The notes under the pieces: generated by a model
What the model was told of the DNA's origin: nothing
What the model saw: only the letters and a program-made list of their open reading frames with translations
Databases searched by the model: none
Translations under genes and position numbers: made by a program
Origin: a virus
Direction: 5' to 3' (one strand)
Virus record (IMG/VR): IMGVR_UViG_3300047483_000490
Coordinates: 1 to 64,000 of that record
DNA: 64,000 nucleotides
Part shown: positions 10,544 to 58,865 of the stretch, in pieces
Layout of the letters: each line of letters begins with the position of its first letter
Numbering within the stretch: position 1 is the first letter of the stretch

Positions 10544-11974
10544 ATGAACTTAGTAGACGCTTTAAGACAAGAAGACATTTTAACAGAAAATGGTATGGCA
10601 ACTAATTCAACTTCGTTGAATGCATGTGTCGATTTATTTTTTAACATTGGTGCAATGAGAGGCCAAGACAAACAACGTTTGATCGCAACCTTTTCGAAAG
10701 CATTTAATGAAGATCCGAAGCGTGCTATGAAACTTTTGTTTTGGGCCAGAGATGTTAGAGGTGGTGCAGGTGAACGTCAAGTCTTCAAAGATATTTTAGT
10801 TTACTTAGCTGAAACTCATGATTTGGCTTTAAAACCAAACTTAGGCTTAATTGCAGAGTATGGTCGTTTTGATGACTTACTAACTTTAGTAGGAACTTAT
10901 TTAGAAAATGATGCTTTGCAAATTATTGCAGATGCTCTTAAATCTGAAAATGGTTTATGTGCAAAATGGATGCCACGTAAAGGTCAAGTAGCTGAAAAGT
11001 TACGTGCATTCTTGAAATTGTCACCAAAACAATATCGTAAAACTTTAGTTAATTTAACTAACGTTGTTGAAACTAAAATGTGTGCTAAAGAATGGGATTC
11101 TATTGAATTCGGTAAATTACCATCAGTGGCTTCAGCACGATACCAAAAAGCTTTCGGTAAAAATGCTTACGAAAGTTATTCAGCTTATATCCAATCCTTA
11201 GTGAAAGGTGAAGCTAAGATTAATGCAGGCGCAGTTTATCCTTATGATGTTGTAAAATCATTAACACACGGAAATGCAGCAGTAGCAAACGAACAATGGA
11301 AAGCCCTTCCAAATTACTTAGAAGGAGCAAACGATATGATTTTACCAGTGGTAGATGTTTCTGGTTCTATGTCTTGCTCTGCAGGAGGTAGTAAAACAGT
11401 AACATGTATGGATGTTGCAATCTCTTTAGGTCTTTATATTTCTGAAAGAAATGAAGGTCCTTTCAAAGATGCATTTATTACATTTTCAAACAATCCACAG
11501 TTACAAGTACTAAGTGGTTCATTGCAAGATCGCTACGCACAGATGTTATGTTCCGATTGGGGAATGTCAACAAATCTCGAGGCGACCTTCAAGCTGATCT
11601 TAGATCAGGCCACTAAACATAAATTGTCTCAAGACAAGATGCCAAATAAAGTTCTGATCTTGTCAGATATGGAATTTAATGCAGCAACTAGATCTAGCGG
11701 ATGGAGAAATACCGGATCAGATTGGAATCCAACTGCTCAACAAATGATTGAGAAAATGTACGAAGATGCAGGTTACAAAATGCCTCAAATCGTTTATTGG
11801 AACATTCAATCCAGAAATGGTGGAGTGCCAGTAGCATTTGACAAAGCAGGAACTGCATTAGTGTCAGGATTCTCTCCAGCAATTATGACAAGTTTACTTG
11901 GAGGAGATATTGAGTCTCCACAACAAATCATGGATAAAACAATCTTGAGCGAGAGATACGCTCCAATTGTTTAA
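10544..11974 (+). CDS. Ro60/TROVE-like vWA-domain protein (DUF2828-type)
   Basis: TENG N-terminus, RDVRGGAGER, EYGRFDDL, AKWMPR, vWA MIDAS DVSGSM and LSDMEF, VYWN, SGFS. Confidence 0.85.
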   Translation: MNLVDALRQEDILTENGMATNSTSLNACVDLFFNIGAMRGQDKQRLIATFSKAFNEDPKRAMKLLFWARDVRGGAGERQVFKDILVYLAETHDLALKPNLGLIAEYGRFDDLLTLVGTYLENDALQIIADALKSENGLCAKWMPRKGQVAEKLRAFLKLSPKQYRKTLVNLTNVVETKMCAKEWDSIEFGKLPSVASARYQKAFGKNAYESYSAYIQSLVKGEAKINAGAVYPYDVVKSLTHGNAAVANEQWKALPNYLEGANDMILPVVDVSGSMSCSAGGSKTVTCMDVAISLGLYISERNEGPFKDAFITFSNNPQLQVLSGSLQDRYAQMLCSDWGMSTNLEATFKLILDQATKHKLSQDKMPNKVLILSDMEFNAATRSSGWRNTGSDWNPTAQQMIEKMYEDAGYKMPQIVYWNIQSRNGGVPVAFDKAGTALVSGFSPAIMTSLLGGDIESPQQIMDKTILSERYAPIV

Positions 11975-11990
11975 GATATATAAAGAAAAT

Positions 11991-12048
11991 TGGTTCCTTA
12001 CAGCAAACTATAAAAAGCAATCACTTAACTAGCAAACGATTGGAACCA
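11991..12048 (+). ncRNA. CAGCAA-motif small RNA A (Y-RNA-like candidate)
   Basis: tggttcc/ggaacca terminal helix followed by tta-cagcaa; 17 nt after the TROVE-like gene. Confidence 0.65.
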
Positions 12049-12051
12049 GGT

Positions 12052-12297
12052 GGATCGGTACAGCAAAAAGTACACACACAACTATGACAAATCTGAACAA
12101 CAGCGGAGCCAGTGGTTAGTCCCGGCATTGAAGCTGCAGATACGGTGAAGGTTAACACTAGAAAATGGACCGCCAGTCATACCACCCCAACAGGCGCAAG
12201 TAGGATGTAGTCGAAGTATAGTAGACTCTCGCGAAAGCTAAGCCGAAGACTATAAAGAGGGTTATTCTGCCGAGAAGAAAATCACGAACAACGATCC
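12052..12297 (+). ncRNA. CAGCAA-motif RNA B (long, multibranch)
   Basis: ggatcg/cgatcc terminal helix + gta-cagcaa; GC-rich internal helices. Confidence 0.6.
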
Positions 12298-12308
12298 CGT
12301 TATAATTT

Positions 12309-12338
12309 AATCCAGGCCCGTAAGCCTGGATTTTTTTT
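12309..12338 (+). terminator. intrinsic terminator
   Basis: aatccaggc-ccgtaa-gcctggatt + U tract. Confidence 0.85.
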
Positions 12339-13861: not shown

Positions 13862-14062
13862 ATGACAGATATTAAATTAGATTACAGTAAAATTAGTAAC
13901 GTTCAAGTTGGTGGTGTAGATATGCAAGATTATCCAGATTTCTGCGATGCTTATATTGAATCAGCAGATTACGGAGATCGTGAAATGACTGATGAAGAGT
14001 TAGACATTTTAAATGAAGACGGAGAATTTATCTCTATTAATGCTCACGAAAGTTTATATTAA
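13862..14062 (+). CDS. hypothetical protein (DYPDFCDAYI family)
   Basis: Follows class I promoter. Confidence 0.65.
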   Translation: MTDIKLDYSKISNVQVGGVDMQDYPDFCDAYIESADYGDREMTDEELDILNEDGEFISINAHESLY

Positions 14063-14072
14063 AACAAGAATT

Positions 14073-14738
14073 ATGAAAATAATAGTTAACCCAGGACAAA
14101 GAGTCTTTTTTACTTCAGATACGCATTACAACCATACAAATATTTGTAGAGGTGTTTCTAAGTGGGATGGCGCTAGAGGGACTCGAGATTATGACTCCTT
14201 GAATCAAATGAACATTGACATACAAGACAATATAAATATGTTAGTTATGCCAGATGACATCTTGATTCACTTGGGTGACTGGTCTTTTGGGGGCTTTGAG
14301 TCTATTGTAGAGTTTAGAAACAAACTAAACTGTAAGAACATTCACTTGTTCTTAGGAAATCATGATCATCACATCCTTAACAACAGAGATAACGTGCAAG
14401 ATCTTTTTGCTTCTGTAAATGAGCAAAGAATGGTTACTATTGTTATGCAACCTGAGGTTAAAGGTCAAGCTGCAAAAAGATATAGATTTGTTATGAGTCA
14501 TTATCCTTTAGCTTCTTGGCAAGATATGGGACAAGGTGTTATGCACGTCCATGGTCATATTCATACACCTCACCAATTTAAACTTGGGCCAGGTAAAATG
14601 ATGGATGTTGGACTTGATGGAAACCCTGATTTTCAACCATATACAATTCAACAAGTCTTGAAACTAATAGCAGATAGACCAATACAATCATTATTAAAAC
14701 ACGAGTTCGATCATCATAACGATGCTCAGACTTGCTAA
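14073..14738 (+). CDS. calcineurin-like metallophosphoesterase
   Basis: SDTH, LGD, GNHD, SHYP, HGHIH motifs. Confidence 0.9.
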   Translation: MKIIVNPGQRVFFTSDTHYNHTNICRGVSKWDGARGTRDYDSLNQMNIDIQDNINMLVMPDDILIHLGDWSFGGFESIVEFRNKLNCKNIHLFLGNHDHHILNNRDNVQDLFASVNEQRMVTIVMQPEVKGQAAKRYRFVMSHYPLASWQDMGQGVMHVHGHIHTPHQFKLGPGKMMDVGLDGNPDFQPYTIQQVLKLIADRPIQSLLKHEFDHHNDAQTC

Positions 14739-14748
14739 ATAAACAAAC

Positions 14749-15135
14749 ATGAAAGAATTATTTTTATTAAGAGGTTTACCAGGTTCTGGCAAATCAACAG
14801 TTGCGAAATCTTTAGGTGGAACACATCACGAGGCAGATCATTTCTTTACAAATAAGAAAGGCGAATATAAGTTTGAGGCTGTAAAGCTTTTACAAGCTCA
14901 TAAATATTGCCAATCATCTTGTAAAGAAGACATGGAAAACGGCGAAGAACGTATTGTTATCTCAAACACATTCACACAAGAATGGGAAATGGAAACCTAT
15001 TATACTTTGGCAAAAAAGTATGGTTATATTGTTTATGCTTTAATTGTTGAAAATAGACACAATGGAGTTAACCAACATGGTGTTCCAGCAGAAAAATTAA
15101 AGCAAATGGAAGACAGATTTGAGATACAATTGTAA
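14749..15135 (+). CDS. P-loop kinase (AAA_33, polynucleotide kinase-like)
   Basis: RGLPGSGKST, EAD.FF, SNTFT, HGVP motifs. Confidence 0.85.
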   Translation: MKELFLLRGLPGSGKSTVAKSLGGTHHEADHFFTNKKGEYKFEAVKLLQAHKYCQSSCKEDMENGEERIVISNTFTQEWEMETYYTLAKKYGYIVYALIVENRHNGVNQHGVPAEKLKQMEDRFEIQL

Positions 15136-17986: not shown

Positions 17987-18115
17987 GGCCAGGTGGTGGA
18001 ATTGGTAGACACTAAGCCTCAGCAAGAGTGGCGGAACGCTGTGACGGACTCCGAAGTACAAGGAGTTGAAGGTGAAGATTACGCACGGTTATAGGTTCGA
18101 ATCCTGTCCTGGTCA
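17987..18115 (+). ncRNA. tRNA-like RNA with structured insert replacing the anticodon arm
   Basis: ggccagg/cctggtc acceptor, Leu-type D arm, canonical T arm, ~70-nt insert. Confidence 0.7.
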
Positions 18116-18195
18116 CTCTACTTAAACTAGTTTATGAACAGTCTTTGAGGTGAGATGCTCTCATTATAAAATTAGGTTAAACATTGAATACCTTT

Positions 18196-18460
18196 GTAAA
18201 TAAGCGGACTCAGTAGTGTGGGCAGTACCTTTCATGGTATGAAGCAAAGAAGACAGGATGTAATTTCCTTCCTTATTTACATAAAGATACTATCAGTAAT
18301 GGTAGATGTGTTGTTCCCTTGAGAAAGAAATATGAAATACGAGGTAGGTCATAACATCCTACACAACACAAATGAGTTCTCAGCAAGTAGTTAAAGCGGA
18401 AGATTGTACATTAAATTGTCCGAAGTACTTAACAGATTAACTACGTGACCCTACTCTTAT
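18196..18460 (+). ncRNA. cluster of putative structured small RNAs
   Basis: Closing helices gtaaataag/cttatttac, tgtgttgt/acaacaca, gtagttaa/ttaactac; no ORF. Confidence 0.45.
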
Positions 18461-18577: not shown

Positions 18578-19696
18578 ATGGAAAATCAAAATTCAGTTTG
18601 CTATGTAGCAAAAATTAACGAGATTAAAGCAATTGAAGGAGCTGACAATATTGAATTGGTAGTTGCTGGAGGTTGGAATGCTATTACAAAAAAAGGTGAA
18701 TTCACCGTAGGTTCATTAACTGTAATTGCAACAACTGACGCAGTTATTCCTGAAGCACTTTCTGAAAAGATGGGTGTTACTAATTATTTACGTAAAGGTC
18801 AAAGAGTTAGAACTGTAAAACTAAGAGGTGTTTACTCTGAATGTTTGATTATTCCAATAGTTCATATCAAGGCTTCTAGTATTAGAGAAGGTCGCGACTT
18901 AATGGAAGAATTAGGCATCACTAAATTCGAGCCACCGGTTAAACAAATCCAATTAACTTCTGGCAAAAAGATTCGTTACAGTGAAAATCCTAACTTTAAA
19001 ATCTATTACAAGTTTCCAAACTTGAAAAATGTTGCAGGTATGTTTACTGAAGAGAACGCAGTTCAAATCACTCGTAAATTACATGGAACTAACGCACGAT
19101 ATGGAATTGTAAAACGTAAGAAGATAGGATTACTTACAAAACTTAAAGCTTTTTTTGGTGACAAATGGGCTGGATATGAATTTGTAGTTGGTTCTCATAA
19201 CGTTGAAAAAGGTTCTGAATCACAAGGATTCTATGACACTAACGTGTGGTATGAAATTGCAGACAAATATAAGATCAAATCTAAGTTGTGGAATTTTATT
19301 AAAGAGACTGCAACACCTGAAGGAATTGGTGAAGGTTTTTGTATCTATGGTGAAATCTACGGTGCAGGAATTCAAAAGAATTACGAGTACGGTCTTACTG
19401 AAATTAAGTTTTCTATGTTTGACGTAACTCTTAATGGTGATTATGTACCAACCGGATGGACAGAAATGTATGCAAATGAATTAGGATTTGATCACGTTGA
19501 AGTTCTTTACGATGGCTTATGGTCTCAAGAAATTCAAGATCGTTTTGTCTTTAACAACTTTATTGAAGGCACCAAAGTGCCACATGAAGGAATTGTAATC
19601 AAACATGTCTCTGGTGAAAGAAGTAAAGTAGCTAAGGTTATTAACCCAGACTATTTAATCTACGGTGAAAAAAATAACGTAGGAGATTCTCACTAA
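18578..19696 (+). CDS. RNA ligase, DRB0094-like family
   Basis: N-terminal OB-like domain (GADNIE), KLHGTN motif I, YGEIYG, FDV, EGIVIK, KVINPDY. Confidence 0.88.
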   Translation: MENQNSVCYVAKINEIKAIEGADNIELVVAGGWNAITKKGEFTVGSLTVIATTDAVIPEALSEKMGVTNYLRKGQRVRTVKLRGVYSECLIIPIVHIKASSIREGRDLMEELGITKFEPPVKQIQLTSGKKIRYSENPNFKIYYKFPNLKNVAGMFTEENAVQITRKLHGTNARYGIVKRKKIGLLTKLKAFFGDKWAGYEFVVGSHNVEKGSESQGFYDTNVWYEIADKYKIKSKLWNFIKETATPEGIGEGFCIYGEIYGAGIQKNYEYGLTEIKFSMFDVTLNGDYVPTGWTEMYANELGFDHVEVLYDGLWSQEIQDRFVFNNFIEGTKVPHEGIVIKHVSGERSKVAKVINPDYLIYGEKNNVGDSH

Positions 19697-56526: not shown

Positions 56527-56536
56527 TTAACATATT

Positions 56537-56593
56537 AGGATGCTTCCAGCAAATTTACAAAACTTTATATGGAAAAGCAAAACATAGCATCCT
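56537..56593 (+). ncRNA. CAGCAA-motif small RNA C
   Basis: aggatgct/agcatcct helix + tc-cagcaa. Confidence 0.65.
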
Positions 56594-56668
56594 GTTTTTT
56601 AAAATTTAAGAGTATGGACGGAGCAGCAGAAATTCTAGATAGCAGAAGTCTCAGGTCCTAACTCTCTC

Positions 56669-57687: not shown

Positions 57688-57864
57688 ATGCAAAATTTAA
57701 ATCAGATCGAAGAGATTCTTAACTCAATCAAAGAAGACGCAACTAAATTTTTCGAAAAAGGAAACAAAGCAGCTGGAACTAGAGTTCGTAAAGCAATGCA
57801 AGAAATCAAAGCATTAGCGCAAGCAGTTCGTACTGAAGTTTCAGAGAAAAACAAAGAAGCTTAA
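57688..57864 (+). CDS. histone H1-like (Hc1) small nucleoid protein
   Basis: Manual ORF: KFFEKGNKAAGTRVRKAMQEIK..AQ.VR. Confidence 0.8.
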   Translation: MQNLNQIEEILNSIKEDATKFFEKGNKAAGTRVRKAMQEIKALAQAVRTEVSEKNKEA

Positions 57865-58109: not shown

Positions 58110-58250
58110 AGGTTTCTTACAGCAATTAAAATTCTATAGGAACTGGTATCGAAAGATGTGTAGGTTCGAGTCCTACCTCTCCAACAAATTTTAAAATAAT
58201 TGGAGAGTGGTGAAATTGGTAGACACGCTAGTCAGAAAAAACAGAAACCT
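58110..58250 (+). ncRNA. CAGCAA-motif RNA D carrying circularly permuted tRNA-Leu(UAG)
   Basis: aggtttct/agaaacct helix; order variable arm, T arm, acceptor hairpin, D arm. Confidence 0.8.
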
Positions 58251-58260
58251 GAAAATTATT

Positions 58261-58319
58261 GGAATACCTACAGCAAGCTTACCAAACTTTGACTTTTACT
58301 CAAACCAAATGCGTATTCC
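58261..58319 (+). ncRNA. CAGCAA-motif RNA E carrying tRNA-Lys(UUU)-like anticodon stem-loop
   Basis: ggaatac/gtattcc helix; tttga-cttttac-tcaaa. Confidence 0.7.
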
Positions 58320-58336
58320 GTTAAATTATTTTATAA

Positions 58337-58471
58337 AGGATGGTTCCAGCAACACATACAAATTAGGCTGTTAACCTCGTGGTCGTCGGTTCGAACCCGG
58401 CCTTTGAACACCGCCTTAAGTGGCACGTTCAGAGTAGCTCAGTTGGTAGAGCACGTACAAAAGCCCATCCT
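58337..58471 (+). ncRNA. CAGCAA-motif RNA F carrying circularly permuted tRNA-Asn(GUU)
   Basis: aggatgg/ccatcct helix; agg-ctgttaa-cct, T arm, acceptor hairpin, D arm. Confidence 0.8.
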
Positions 58472-58559: not shown

Positions 58560-58634
58560 GCAGCAATGGTATAACGGTTATCACACCGCCTTGCCAAGGC
58601 GGATATCGCAGTTCGATTCTGCGTTGCTGCTCCA
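58560..58634 (+). tRNA. tRNA-Gly(GCC)
   Basis: ccgcc-ttgccaa-ggcgg, U73, CCA. Confidence 0.93.
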
Positions 58635-58827
58635 GTAGATTTTTTAGCGTGGCGTGGATTCAGCAGACTTGTTAAATCTTAAAAGAAACAAGATAAGGTA
58701 ATAAGAATCAAGTTTGACAGTGATTATCTTTGAACAACTGTACTGCTTTGGTGATCGATCGCCCGTTCCCAGTATCGAATGAAAACTCGTAAGGCAAGAT
58801 GCAAAACTGTAGCGCATCACCAAAGTT

Positions 58828-58865
58828 AAAAGGGAACCCGTGCACATGGTTCCCTTTTCTTTTTT
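58828..58865 (+). terminator. intrinsic terminator
   Basis: aaaagggaacc...ggttccctttt + U tract. Confidence 0.8.

What the first reader, a model, noticed from the sequence alone, without database searches (positions are those of the whole stretch)
58261..58319. Minimal RNA displaying only a tRNA-Lys(UUU) anticodon stem-loop
Seen: handle helix ggaatac/gtattcc + cta-cagcaa encloses tttga-cttttac-tcaaa, a 5-bp stem with a 7-nt CU-UUU-AC loop. Known: tRNA-Lys(UUU) is the target of PrrC and of the PARIS effector AriB. Inference: a decoy substrate or inhibitor for Lys-specific anticodon nucleases.
Basis: partly seen in the sequence, partly recalled or inferred. Interest (0 to 1): 0.78.

Follow-up and report, generated by a model that had tools for sequence, protein, structure and literature searches.

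The report
Phage RNA mimicking lysine-tRNA anticodon arm
A 61-base phage RNA gene folds into a conserved "handle" that holds out a copy of the anticodon arm of lysine tRNA; it belongs to a large family of phage RNAs, absent from Rfam and from the papers I could search, that travels with a Ro60-like protein and displays anticodon arms of real tRNAs, possibly to distract the host's tRNA-cutting defence enzymes.

Summary
At 58260-58320 (+) an 8-bp closing stem, CUA, an invariant CAGCAA and an 11-nt linker enclose a 5-bp stem with the 7-nt loop CUUUUAC. Both helices covary in relatives.

In 96 distinct elements picked only by their handle, 33 carry a stem of at least 5 bp with a CU-NNN-AA loop (0.085 expected from shuffles). 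All ten triplets are real anticodons, led by Lys UUU and Thr UGU.

The handle marks partner RNAs of a DUF2828/DUF7788 protein (10544-11974). Its predicted fold matches only Ro60/TROVE proteins over its full length. 22 of 26 viral records with a Lys-arm element encode this protein, against 1 of 21 controls, and in 5 of 10 genomes the RNA lies directly upstream of the gene.

So this is a Y-RNA-like RNA whose variable module mimics the tRNA-Lys anticodon arm. The decoy idea is plausible but unproven: known anticodon-nuclease targets head the cargo list, tRNA repair genes are present, and the family was found in viral records.

This scan has noted the family on other DNA (125 notes, at least 104 genomes). 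I found it in neither Rfam nor the papers searched.

The parts
58260..58267 (+). 5' arm of the closing stem (uggaauac)
   Evidence: Pairs with 58313-58320. Four of its 8 pairs change on both sides among relatives.
58268..58276 (+). 3-nt spacer (cua) and the invariant CAGCAA motif (58271-58276)
   Evidence: CAGCAA is invariant in all E5 orthologues. The handle search, which itself requires CAGCAA, finds a covarying closing stem plus the motif downstream of the DUF2828 gene in most of the 80 related loci.
58277..58287 (+). A/U-rich 5' linker
   Evidence: Varies in sequence and by 1-nt indels between relatives. Family linkers are mostly 8-10 nt.
58288..58304 (+). Anticodon-arm mimic: stem uuuga/ucaaa and loop C32-U33-UUU-A37-C38
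   Evidence: All 5 stem pairs change on both sides in relatives. It is identical in several divergent phages. The closely related complete phage genome G001 (256 kb; neighbouring gene 91% identical) has a tRNA-Lys arm ccuga-cuuuuaa-ucagg.
58305..58312 (+). 3' linker (ccaaaugc)
   Evidence: Variable in relatives.
58313..58320 (+). 3' arm of the closing stem (guauuccg)
58110..58250 (+). E4, upstream neighbour: same handle (aggtttct-ta-CAGCAA) carrying a permuted class II (Leu-like) tRNA body
   Evidence: The order T arm, acceptor, D arm is read from the sequence. Handle found. Weak YrlA hit of 14.8 bits.
58337..58471 (+). E6, downstream neighbour: same handle carrying a permuted tRNA with an intact CUGUUAA (Asn GUU) loop
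   Evidence: Rfam YrlA 30.6 bits, E 2.4e-4, below the gathering score of 69. Fold. Handle.
56536..56594 (+). E3, paralogue: same handle with a UGG-loop hairpin
   Evidence: 46.3 bits with the E5 covariance model R1.
11990..12297 (+). E1 (11990-12049) and E2 (12052-12297): two handle RNAs directly after the Ro60-like gene
   Evidence: The same pair follows the gene in most of 80 related loci, with covarying stems.
10544..11974 (+). Ro60-like protein gene (DUF2828 + DUF7788), the presumed protein partner
   Evidence: Pfam 120 and 184 bits. AlphaFold model with pLDDT 75. The top 12 Foldseek matches (all with E below 1e-4, listed ranks 1-13) are Ro60/TROVE proteins, TM mostly 0.5-0.58, over the full length.
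14013..15135 (+). Phosphoesterase and P-loop (polynucleotide-kinase-like) genes
   Evidence: PHROGs phrog_547, phrog_2071 and phrog_505.
18578..19696 (+). RNA ligase gene
   Evidence: Pfam RNA_ligase; PHROGs phrog_968, E 1.4e-57.
58560..58634 (+). tRNA-Gly(GCC), on the same strand downstream of the E4-E5-E6 array
   Evidence: ARAGORN and Rfam at 57 bits.

Best explanation
**What it is (about 0.9 confidence).** A small non-coding RNA of about 61 nt. It is probably cut out of a transcript that also carries two tRNA-shaped relatives and tRNA-Gly.

It belongs to a phage RNA family defined by a closing stem plus CAGCAA. This family is the likely Y-RNA-like partner of the phage's Ro60-like ring protein (DUF2828/DUF7788). 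In this member the variable module is a mimic of the tRNA-Lys(UUU) anticodon arm.

**How it most likely works (inferred).**
1. The protein binds the stem/CAGCAA handle, as Ro60 binds the Y RNA stem. This stabilises the RNA and leaves the anticodon arm exposed.
2. The exposed arm engages an enzyme that reads a specific anticodon arm. The most likely candidate is a host anticodon nuclease raised against the phage.
3. The arm then acts as a competing substrate, or as a trap that ties the enzyme to the Ro60-like particle. This would spare the Lys tRNA pool.

Other family members would do the same for Thr, Asn, Ser, Tyr, Cys and Arg tRNAs.
For: **Shown here**
- Structure and covariation of both helices.
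- Family-wide anticodon-loop signature in a sample chosen by handle only:
  - 33 of 96 elements have CU-NNN-AA on a stem of at least 5 bp, against 0.085 in shuffles.
  - Triplets: UUU 9, UGU 9, UCU 3, GUA 3, GCU 3, GGA 2, UGA, GCA, CGU, GUU. None is A34-type or a stop anticodon.
  - Position profile among the 49 loops kept for having U33 and a purine at 37: C32 45/49, A37 48/49, A38 45/49, A31-U39 43/49.
- About 45-50 Lys-loop elements with seven different, always paired, stems.
- The protein is Ro60-like by fold.
- The handle RNAs follow its gene in most of 80 loci.
- 22 of 26 records carrying a Lys-arm element encode DUF2828, against 1 of 21 controls. The RNA lies 100-400 nt upstream on the same strand in 5 of 10 genomes.
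- A phosphoesterase, a PNK-like kinase and an RNA ligase lie within 8 kb of the Ro60-like gene.
- In a scan of cellular genomes, none of the 120 listed rows held a true member. About half of the viral rows did.

**From papers**
- Y RNAs bind Ro60 through a terminal stem and tether other proteins. Bacterial species have one tRNA-like Y RNA plus one simple hairpin Y RNA (PMC4201824).
[quoted passage not shown] These are the two commonest cargoes, and Asn is the cargo of the neighbouring element E6 (PMC12409363).
Against:
- No binding was tested, and the host is unknown.
- The hairpin is A/U-rich and marginally stable (-0.7 kcal/mol for the interior; whole-element z = -1.23).
- This copy lies 46 kb from the Ro60-like gene.
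- Its loop has C38 where nearly all relatives have A38. C38 breaks the UAAU motif shared by AriB targets (PMC12409363).
- AriB also needs D-loop contacts, so a bare arm may be a poor ligand for that enzyme.
- Several direct orthologues have non-anticodon loops: 13 nt, 8 nt, or no U33.
- Cargo restricted to anticodons ending in U or A could partly reflect A/U-rich composition.
- A repair-platform role fits the neighbouring ligase and kinase genes equally well.
Confidence: 0.45

Rival explanations
1. Repair tether. The same ribonucleoprotein, but the anticodon arm recruits phage tRNA repair enzymes (RNA ligase, kinase/phosphatase) to the Ro60-like ring. The ring holds cleaved tRNAs, making a repair platform rather than a decoy.
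For: - A phosphoesterase, a PNK-like kinase and an RNA ligase lie within 8 kb of the Ro60-like gene.
- Y RNAs are known to tether Ro60 to an effector enzyme (PMC4201824).
- Jumbo-phage TROVE proteins have been proposed as RNA repair platforms with a tRNA-like partner (PMC7824862).
Against: - A general repair enzyme would not need a repertoire of at least ten different real anticodons.
- A single phage carries several different ones.
- No link between ligase genes and the RNAs was tested beyond this window.
Confidence: 0.2
2. Generic partner RNA with a tRNA-derived leftover. The handle is all that matters, for binding or gating the Ro60-like ring. The anticodon-like hairpin is inherited from a tRNA ancestor and serves only as a spacer.
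For: - The handle RNAs next to the Ro60-like gene (E1 type) have unstructured interiors.
- Some E5 orthologues lost the 7-nt loop.
- Neighbouring members carry whole tRNA bodies, which suggests tRNA ancestry.
Against: - C32, U33, A37, A38 and A31-U39 are kept across many lineages while the stems change by compensatory substitutions.
- The 17-nt hairpin is identical in phages 58-91% identical at the neighbouring gene, while the linkers drift.
- This is the pattern of selection on the loop itself.
Confidence: 0.15
3. Ligand for other anticodon-arm readers. The arm titrates or borrows tRNA modification enzymes (t6A37 or i6A37 machinery, wobble-uridine modifiers), aminoacyl-tRNA synthetases, or the ribosomal decoding site.
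For: - All cargo loops have A37 with U36 or A36, the determinants of the t6A and i6A classes (established tRNA knowledge).
- YrlA is modified by tRNA enzymes (PMC4201824).
Against: - Ser anticodons are among the cargo, although seryl-tRNA synthetase does not read the anticodon (established knowledge).
- There is no evident benefit to the phage.
- Nothing was tested.
Confidence: 0.1
4. Chance hairpin in an intergenic spacer, not an RNA gene.
For: The fold energy is not better than shuffles (z = -1.23).
Against: Covariation in both helices, orthologues at 54-78 bits, and the family-wide statistics.
Confidence: 0.02

Closest known systems
Bacterial and phage Y RNAs with Ro60/Rsr: YrlA (Rfam RF02553), YrlB, Yrn2 (Chen et al. 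2014, PMC4201824)
   Same: - A small RNA whose 5' and 3' ends form a stem followed by a short conserved motif.
- Encoded beside, and on the same strand as, a Ro60-type ring protein gene.
- Several per genome.
[quoted passage not shown]
   Different: - The protein is DUF2828/DUF7788. It does not match the Pfam TROVE model and is Ro60-like only by fold.
- The motif is CAGCAA, not GNCGAA.
- The mimic is an anticodon arm, whereas YrlA copies the acceptor/T/D body and lacks the anticodon arm.
- There is a repertoire of anticodons.
- No Rfam hit for this element.
Thermus phage phiLo Ro60 with Yrl1/Yrl2 (PMC12135203; PDB 9KOP, 9L5Y)
   Same: - A phage-encoded Ro60 with phage-encoded partner RNAs upstream of the gene.
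- It is the best structural match of the window's protein.
   Different: - The phiLo RNAs were picked by a CGAA motif and bind host PNPase.
- No anticodon-arm mimic is described there.
[quoted passage not shown]
   Same: Phage RNA genes aimed at the same tRNA identities (Lys, Thr, Asn). The contest is decided by anticodon-arm positions 36-41.
   Different: - Those are complete, decoding tRNAs that replace the cut host tRNAs.
- This is a bare arm on a protein-binding handle. It cannot decode.
Phage T4 Pnkp plus Rnl1 repair of PrrC-cut tRNA-Lys (PMC1484252, PMC7824862)
   Same: The phage carries a kinase/phosphoesterase/RNA ligase set, and the RNA copies the very arm that PrrC cuts.
   Different: T4 has no known RNA component or Ro60-like protein in this pathway (from memory).
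Dictyostelium Class I RNAs (Rfam RF01414)
   Same: A short terminal stem followed at once by CCUUACAGCAA. Here the sequence is ggaauac-CCUACAGCAA. RF01414 is the only Rfam model that aligns to the element.
   Different: - The score is 13.1 bits, E 2.9, against a gathering score of 41.5.
- The host is a eukaryote, and no anticodon-arm cargo is known.
- Any kinship is untested.

Membership tests
Stem-CAGCAA RNA family linked to DUF2828 (undescribed; defined in this scan) | Closing stem of 6-10 bp starting (U/A)GG, then 1-4 nt, then an invariant CAGCAA just inside the 5' arm | tested here: met
   uggaauac-cua-CAGCAA ... guauuccg. The stem covaries.
Stem-CAGCAA RNA family linked to DUF2828 (undescribed; defined in this scan) | Occurs in genomes that encode the DUF2828/DUF7788 Ro60-like protein, often beside the gene | tested here: met
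   The gene is at 10544-11974 with E1/E2 directly after it. Carriers 22/26 against controls 1/21. The RNA is adjacent in 5 of 10 genomes. This particular copy lies 46 kb away.
Stem-CAGCAA RNA family linked to DUF2828 (undescribed; defined in this scan) | Physically bound by the Ro60-like protein | not testable with these tools
   Needs co-purification. The complex predictor takes proteins only.
Y RNA, YrlA type (RF02553; PMC4201824) | Matches the YrlA covariance model at or above its gathering score | tested here: not met
   No hit on 58255-58325. Neighbour E6 reaches 30.6 bits against a gathering score of 69.
Y RNA, YrlA type (RF02553; PMC4201824) | tRNA-like domain with T arm, acceptor-like stem and D arm | tested here: not met
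   This element holds only a 5-bp hairpin. E4 and E6 do have such domains.
Y RNA, YrlA type (RF02553; PMC4201824) | GNCGAA(N0-1)G motif in the Ro60-binding stem | tested here: not met
   The motif here is CAGCAA.
Y RNA in the broad sense (partner RNA of a Ro60-type protein) | Terminal stem formed by both ends, encoded with a Ro60-type protein, with a variable effector module | tested here: met
   Binding itself is not testable here.
tRNA (RF00005) | Cloverleaf with acceptor, D, anticodon and T arms | tested here: not met
   Not called by ARAGORN or Rfam. Only the anticodon arm is present.
tRNA-Lys(UUU) anticodon arm (as a mimic) | 5-bp stem; 7-nt loop with pyrimidine 32, U33, UUU, A37; A31-U39 closing pair | tested here: met
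   uuuga-CUUUUAC-ucaaa. It matches the G001 phage tRNA-Lys arm in the three inner pairs and in 6 of 7 loop bases. Position 38 is C, not A.
Dictyostelium Class I RNA (RF01414) | Matches the model at its gathering score of 41.5 bits | tested here: not met
   13.1 bits, E 2.9.

The most novel reading that the evidence does not exclude
Phages of many lineages carry a ribonucleoprotein counter-defence in two parts. One is a Ro60-like ring. The other is a set of small RNAs, each displaying the anticodon arm of one tRNA that host immune nucleases attack (Lys, Thr, Asn, Tyr, Ser, Cys, Arg). The arms bait the nucleases, and the particle neutralises or removes them. This would be an RNA-based, anticodon-specific anti-defence system and a first concrete role for a phage Ro60-like protein.
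Probability: 0.3. Interest if true: 0.92.

Novelty: new variant of a known kind. Interest (0 to 1): 0.8.

Why it matters
Cutting tRNAs in the anticodon loop is a widespread bacterial defence against phages. The known phage answers are spare tRNAs and repair enzymes. A family of RNAs that show only the anticodon arm, mounted on a protein-binding handle and varied across a set of real anticodons, would be a third kind of answer. It can be tested directly with known nucleases.

It would also give a function to the DUF2828 protein family, which has none assigned. And it would extend Y RNA biology: tRNA mimicry by Y RNAs is known, but not mimicry of the anticodon arm, and not a repertoire of identities.

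The anticodons displayed by a phage might also report which tRNAs its host's defences target.

Tried and rejected
- Pfam TROVE (PF05731) against the whole 79.6-kb record gave no match. The protein is Ro60-like by fold only. Sequence searches of the PDB gave only E about 0.8 to TROVE chains.
- Folding the element alone gave a z-score that is not significant.
- Rfam at gathering score over the window found tRNAs only.
- The search for E5 orthologues next to the neighbouring PD-(D/E)XK gene found none in L007-L011 and L013-L018. The locus is not always syntenic.
- A loose stem pattern (ATAC...GTATYCY) over the viral contigs returned mostly chance matches.
- My first tally of the handle-only sample was inflated for Lys, because loci fetched by the Lys pattern were in the pool. 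I recomputed it on new loci only.
- A scan of 185,579 cellular genomes with AGGAT..CAGCAA..ACTTTTAAT listed 120 rows, none a true member.
- Phage tRNA-Lys genes against Lys-arm RNAs in five complete genomes: four have both, one (G031) has only the RNA. The sample is too small to interpret.
- Protein-complex prediction was not used, because the partner in question is an RNA.

Full report
**1. The observation**

The window is part of a 79.6-kb viral record estimated 30% complete. It has 17 tRNA genes. The finding lies in a 520-nt non-coding tract between a small lipoprotein-like ORF and tRNA-Gly(GCC).

- closing stem 58260-58267 with 58313-58320
- spacer cua
- CAGCAA, 58271-58276
- 11-nt linker
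- stem uuuga/ucaaa, 58288-58292 with 58300-58304
- loop cuuuuac, 58293-58299
- 8-nt linker

Folded alone it is weak: -5.7 kcal/mol, z = -1.23. The case therefore rests on comparison.

**2. Orthologues and covariation**

Related loci were fetched through the neighbouring PD-(D/E)XK gene and through whole related genomes. A covariance model of the element finds orthologues at 54-78 bits.

On 22 distinct sequences:
- 95% of cells pair, against 31-47% with slid partners.
- Nine of 13 pairs change on both sides.
- No shuffle of 500 reaches the observed covariation. The alignment was fitted to the model.

Examples of compensatory change are ggaauac/guauucc to gggauac/guauccc in the closing stem, and uuuga/ucaaa to uuuca/ugaaa in the hairpin. 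Linkers differ by 1-2-nt indels, so no reading frame is kept.

The 17-nt hairpin is identical in the window, L001, L002, L004, L245, L317 and L369. These sit under four different closing stems, in phages whose neighbouring gene is 58-91% identical.

Other orthologues have different loops: CUAUAAA, a 13-nt loop, an 8-nt loop, ACUUAUA and AAUUAUA. The Lys loop is therefore conserved in a sub-lineage, not in all.

**3. The handle defines a family tied to a Ro60-like protein**

The same design (closing stem starting GG, 1-4 nt, CAGCAA) occurs six times in the window:
- E1, 11990-12049
- E2, 12052-12297
- E3, 56536-56594
- E4, 58110-58250
- E5, 58260-58320 (the finding)
- E6, 58337-58471

E4 and E6 carry tRNA bodies in the order T arm, acceptor, D arm. 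This is the layout of YrlA Y RNAs. Rfam's YrlA model hits E6 at 30.6 bits, below its gathering score of 69.

E1 and E2 directly follow ORF 10544-11974, which is DUF2828 plus DUF7788 by Pfam. An AlphaFold model (pLDDT 75) has Ro60/TROVE structures as its top 12 PDB matches. These include Xenopus Ro60, Deinococcus Rsr and Thermus phage phiLo Ro60. They align over the full length, with E of 1e-7 to 4e-5 and TM mostly 0.5-0.58. The Pfam TROVE model itself does not match.

In 80 loci encoding relatives of this protein (59-94% identical), one or two handle RNAs follow the gene in most. Their stems covary, for example ggttcc/ggaacc, gggttat/ataaccc, aggtttc/gaaacct, gggatag/ctatccc and ggatcg/cgatcc.

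**4.

I first scanned the viral contigs for CAGCAA, 5-30 nt, then GACTTTTAMTC.
- Of 116 loci, 59 also passed my closing-stem filter. About 45-50 of these have the full design: a 5-bp stem around the canonical Lys loop CUUUUAA.
- They come from many different contigs.
- The outer stem pairs vary but always pair: uuaga/ucuaa, uuuga/ucaaa, auaga/ucuau, auuga/ucaau, aaaga/ucuuu.

That scan fixed the loop, so I then sampled by handle alone: TAGGAT, 4-8 nt, CAGCAA, 25-48 nt, ATCCTG. Counting only loci new to the session gave 96 distinct elements with a closing stem of at least 8 bp.
- 33 have a stem of at least 5 bp with a 7-nt loop CU-NNN-AA. Shuffles give a mean of 0.085 and a maximum of 1.
- 36 fit YU-NNN-R-N, against 0.5 in shuffles.
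- The triplets are UUU 9, UGU 9, UCU 3, GUA 3, GCU 3, GGA 2, UGA 1, GCA 1, CGU 1 and GUU 1.
- All are real bacterial anticodons: Lys, Thr, Arg, Tyr, Ser, Ser, Ser, Cys, Thr, Asn. None starts with A and none is a stop anticodon.
- All end in U or A and are followed by A37.
- Among the 49 loops kept for having U33 and a purine at 37, C32 is 45/49, A37 48/49, A38 45/49 and the A31-U39 pair 43/49.
- Single contigs carry different anticodons.

The loops are far from random with respect to the anticodon-loop consensus. The element is a true anticodon-arm mimic.

A second cargo class has UGG-containing loops, and E3 belongs to it.

**5. Link of the Lys-arm RNAs to the protein**

- Of 26 viral records with a Lys-arm element, 22 encode DUF2828, including 8 of 8 records at least 90% complete.
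- Of 21 records that matched the same DNA pattern by chance, without the handle, one does. That one looks like a long family member.
- In 5 of 10 genomes the Lys-arm RNA lies 100-400 nt upstream of the gene on the same strand.
- In a scan of cellular genomes none of the 120 listed rows was a true member.

**6. Context for function**

Within 8 kb of the Ro60-like gene lie a phosphoesterase, a P-loop kinase resembling polynucleotide kinase, and an RNA ligase. This is the enzyme set that phage T4 uses to mend tRNA-Lys cut by PrrC (PMC1484252, PMC7824862).

[quoted passage not shown] It recognises U36-A-A-U-C|A41, and it also contacts the D loop (PMC12409363).
- Lys and Thr(UGU) are the two commonest cargoes.
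- The neighbour E6 carries an intact Asn(GUU) loop.
- The window's loop has C38, which alters the UAAU motif. Seven distinct sequences share this variant, so it is a stable subtype.

The close relative G001 also has a normal tRNA-Lys gene, with arm ccuga-cuuuuaa-ucagg. The window's own record has no tRNA-Lys gene in the part that is held.

**7. Reading**

Shown:
- the structure
- its conservation
- the anticodon-loop signature of the family
- the Ro60-like fold of the protein
- the genomic linkage of protein and RNAs

Inferred:
- that the protein binds the handle, by analogy with Ro60 and Y RNAs (PMC4201824, PMC12135203)
- that the exposed arm engages an anticodon-specific enzyme

The variety of real anticodons argues for partners that read the anticodon. 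In a phage the obvious candidates are host anticodon nucleases, so a decoy or trap is my preferred mechanism (0.45).

A repair-tether role (0.2), a handle-only role with a tRNA-derived leftover (0.15) and other anticodon-arm readers (0.1) remain open.

**8. Known or new**

The closest known systems are Ro60/Rsr with YrlA and YrlB, and phiLo Ro60 with Yrl1/2. This element fails the YrlA membership tests:
- no model hit
- no tRNA body
- CAGCAA instead of GNCGAA

It does fit the broader definition of a partner RNA of a Ro60-type protein.

Five paper searches found nothing on DUF2828 function or on anticodon-arm display RNAs. Rfam has no such family.

The only Rfam model that aligns is the Dictyostelium Class I RNA, which has a stem plus CCUUACAGCAA. 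The score of 13.1 bits is not significant.

This scan has noted the family many times on other DNA: 125 notes in at least 104 genomes. These include a note on a 256-kb phage that is probably the close relative G001.

- a cargo count from a handle-only sample with shuffle controls
- a carrier-versus-control test of the protein link
- the match between the commonest cargoes and published nuclease targets

Noticed in passing
window 34068-34135: A tRNA-like gene (Rfam tRNA 39 bits, not called by ARAGORN) with acceptor, D and T arms but no anticodon arm. CAGCAA overlaps the 3' end of its acceptor stem (catctCAGCAAgc).
   Followed up: partly
window 17990-18400: A tRNA-Leu-like gene with a long insert where the anticodon and variable arms should be. 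CTCAGCAAG occurs at about 18028 and again at about 18378. The stretch lies in the non-coding tract just upstream of the RNA ligase gene.
   Followed up: no
window 12052-12330: E2, a 246-nt stem-CAGCAA RNA with a large G+C-richer insert. It is conserved after the Ro60-like gene in about 60 related loci and is followed by a hairpin-plus-U-run terminator. The nature of the insert is unknown.
   Followed up: partly
window 56536-56594 and many viral loci (L172, L245, L414, L421, L434 ...): A second cargo class in the same RNA family: A/U stems closing loops that contain UGG (AUUGGA, AUGGA, UUUUGGU). These may mimic a D loop.
   Followed up: partly
window 14013-15135 and 18578-19696: Phosphoesterase, polynucleotide-kinase-like P-loop protein and RNA ligase genes close to the Ro60-like gene. 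Together they make a likely tRNA repair island.
   Followed up: partly
window 31007-34372 compared with G001 240628-248325: The window's tRNA cluster lacks about ten tRNA genes that the 91%-identical relative G001 has at the same place (Cys, Phe, Gly-UCC, Asn, Tyr, Trp, Met, Arg-ACG, Met, Lys). Both phages keep the Lys-arm RNA.
   Followed up: partly
window 31200-31321: A 122-nt stretch scores 50.5 bits as tRNA in Rfam but is not called by ARAGORN.
   Followed up: no
window 58640-58865: A further non-coding stretch after tRNA-Gly with long-range pairing (tggtgat ... atcacca). It ends in a strong hairpin with a U run (58828-58865), probably the terminator of the whole RNA operon.
   Followed up: no
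window 57688-57864: A 58-aa ORF matching the chlamydial histone H1-like protein Hc1 (Pfam PF07432, E 2.8e-23), encoded in a phage.
   Followed up: no
window 58262-58320 and 58111-58251: The handle resembles the stem plus CCUUACAGCAA of Dictyostelium Class I RNAs (RF01414: 24.1 bits on E4, 13.1 on E5, both below the gathering score). DUF2828 proteins also occur in eukaryotes, so a shared protein-RNA pairing may be worth testing.
   Followed up: partly
L310 (IMGVR_UViG_3300035311_000122): CAGCAA followed by a Lys anticodon arm, variable loop and T arm (ggacttttaatcccgtggtcgcaggttcgaatcctgc). This is a long family member that seems to carry a permuted tRNA-Lys. The record also encodes DUF2828.
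   Followed up: no
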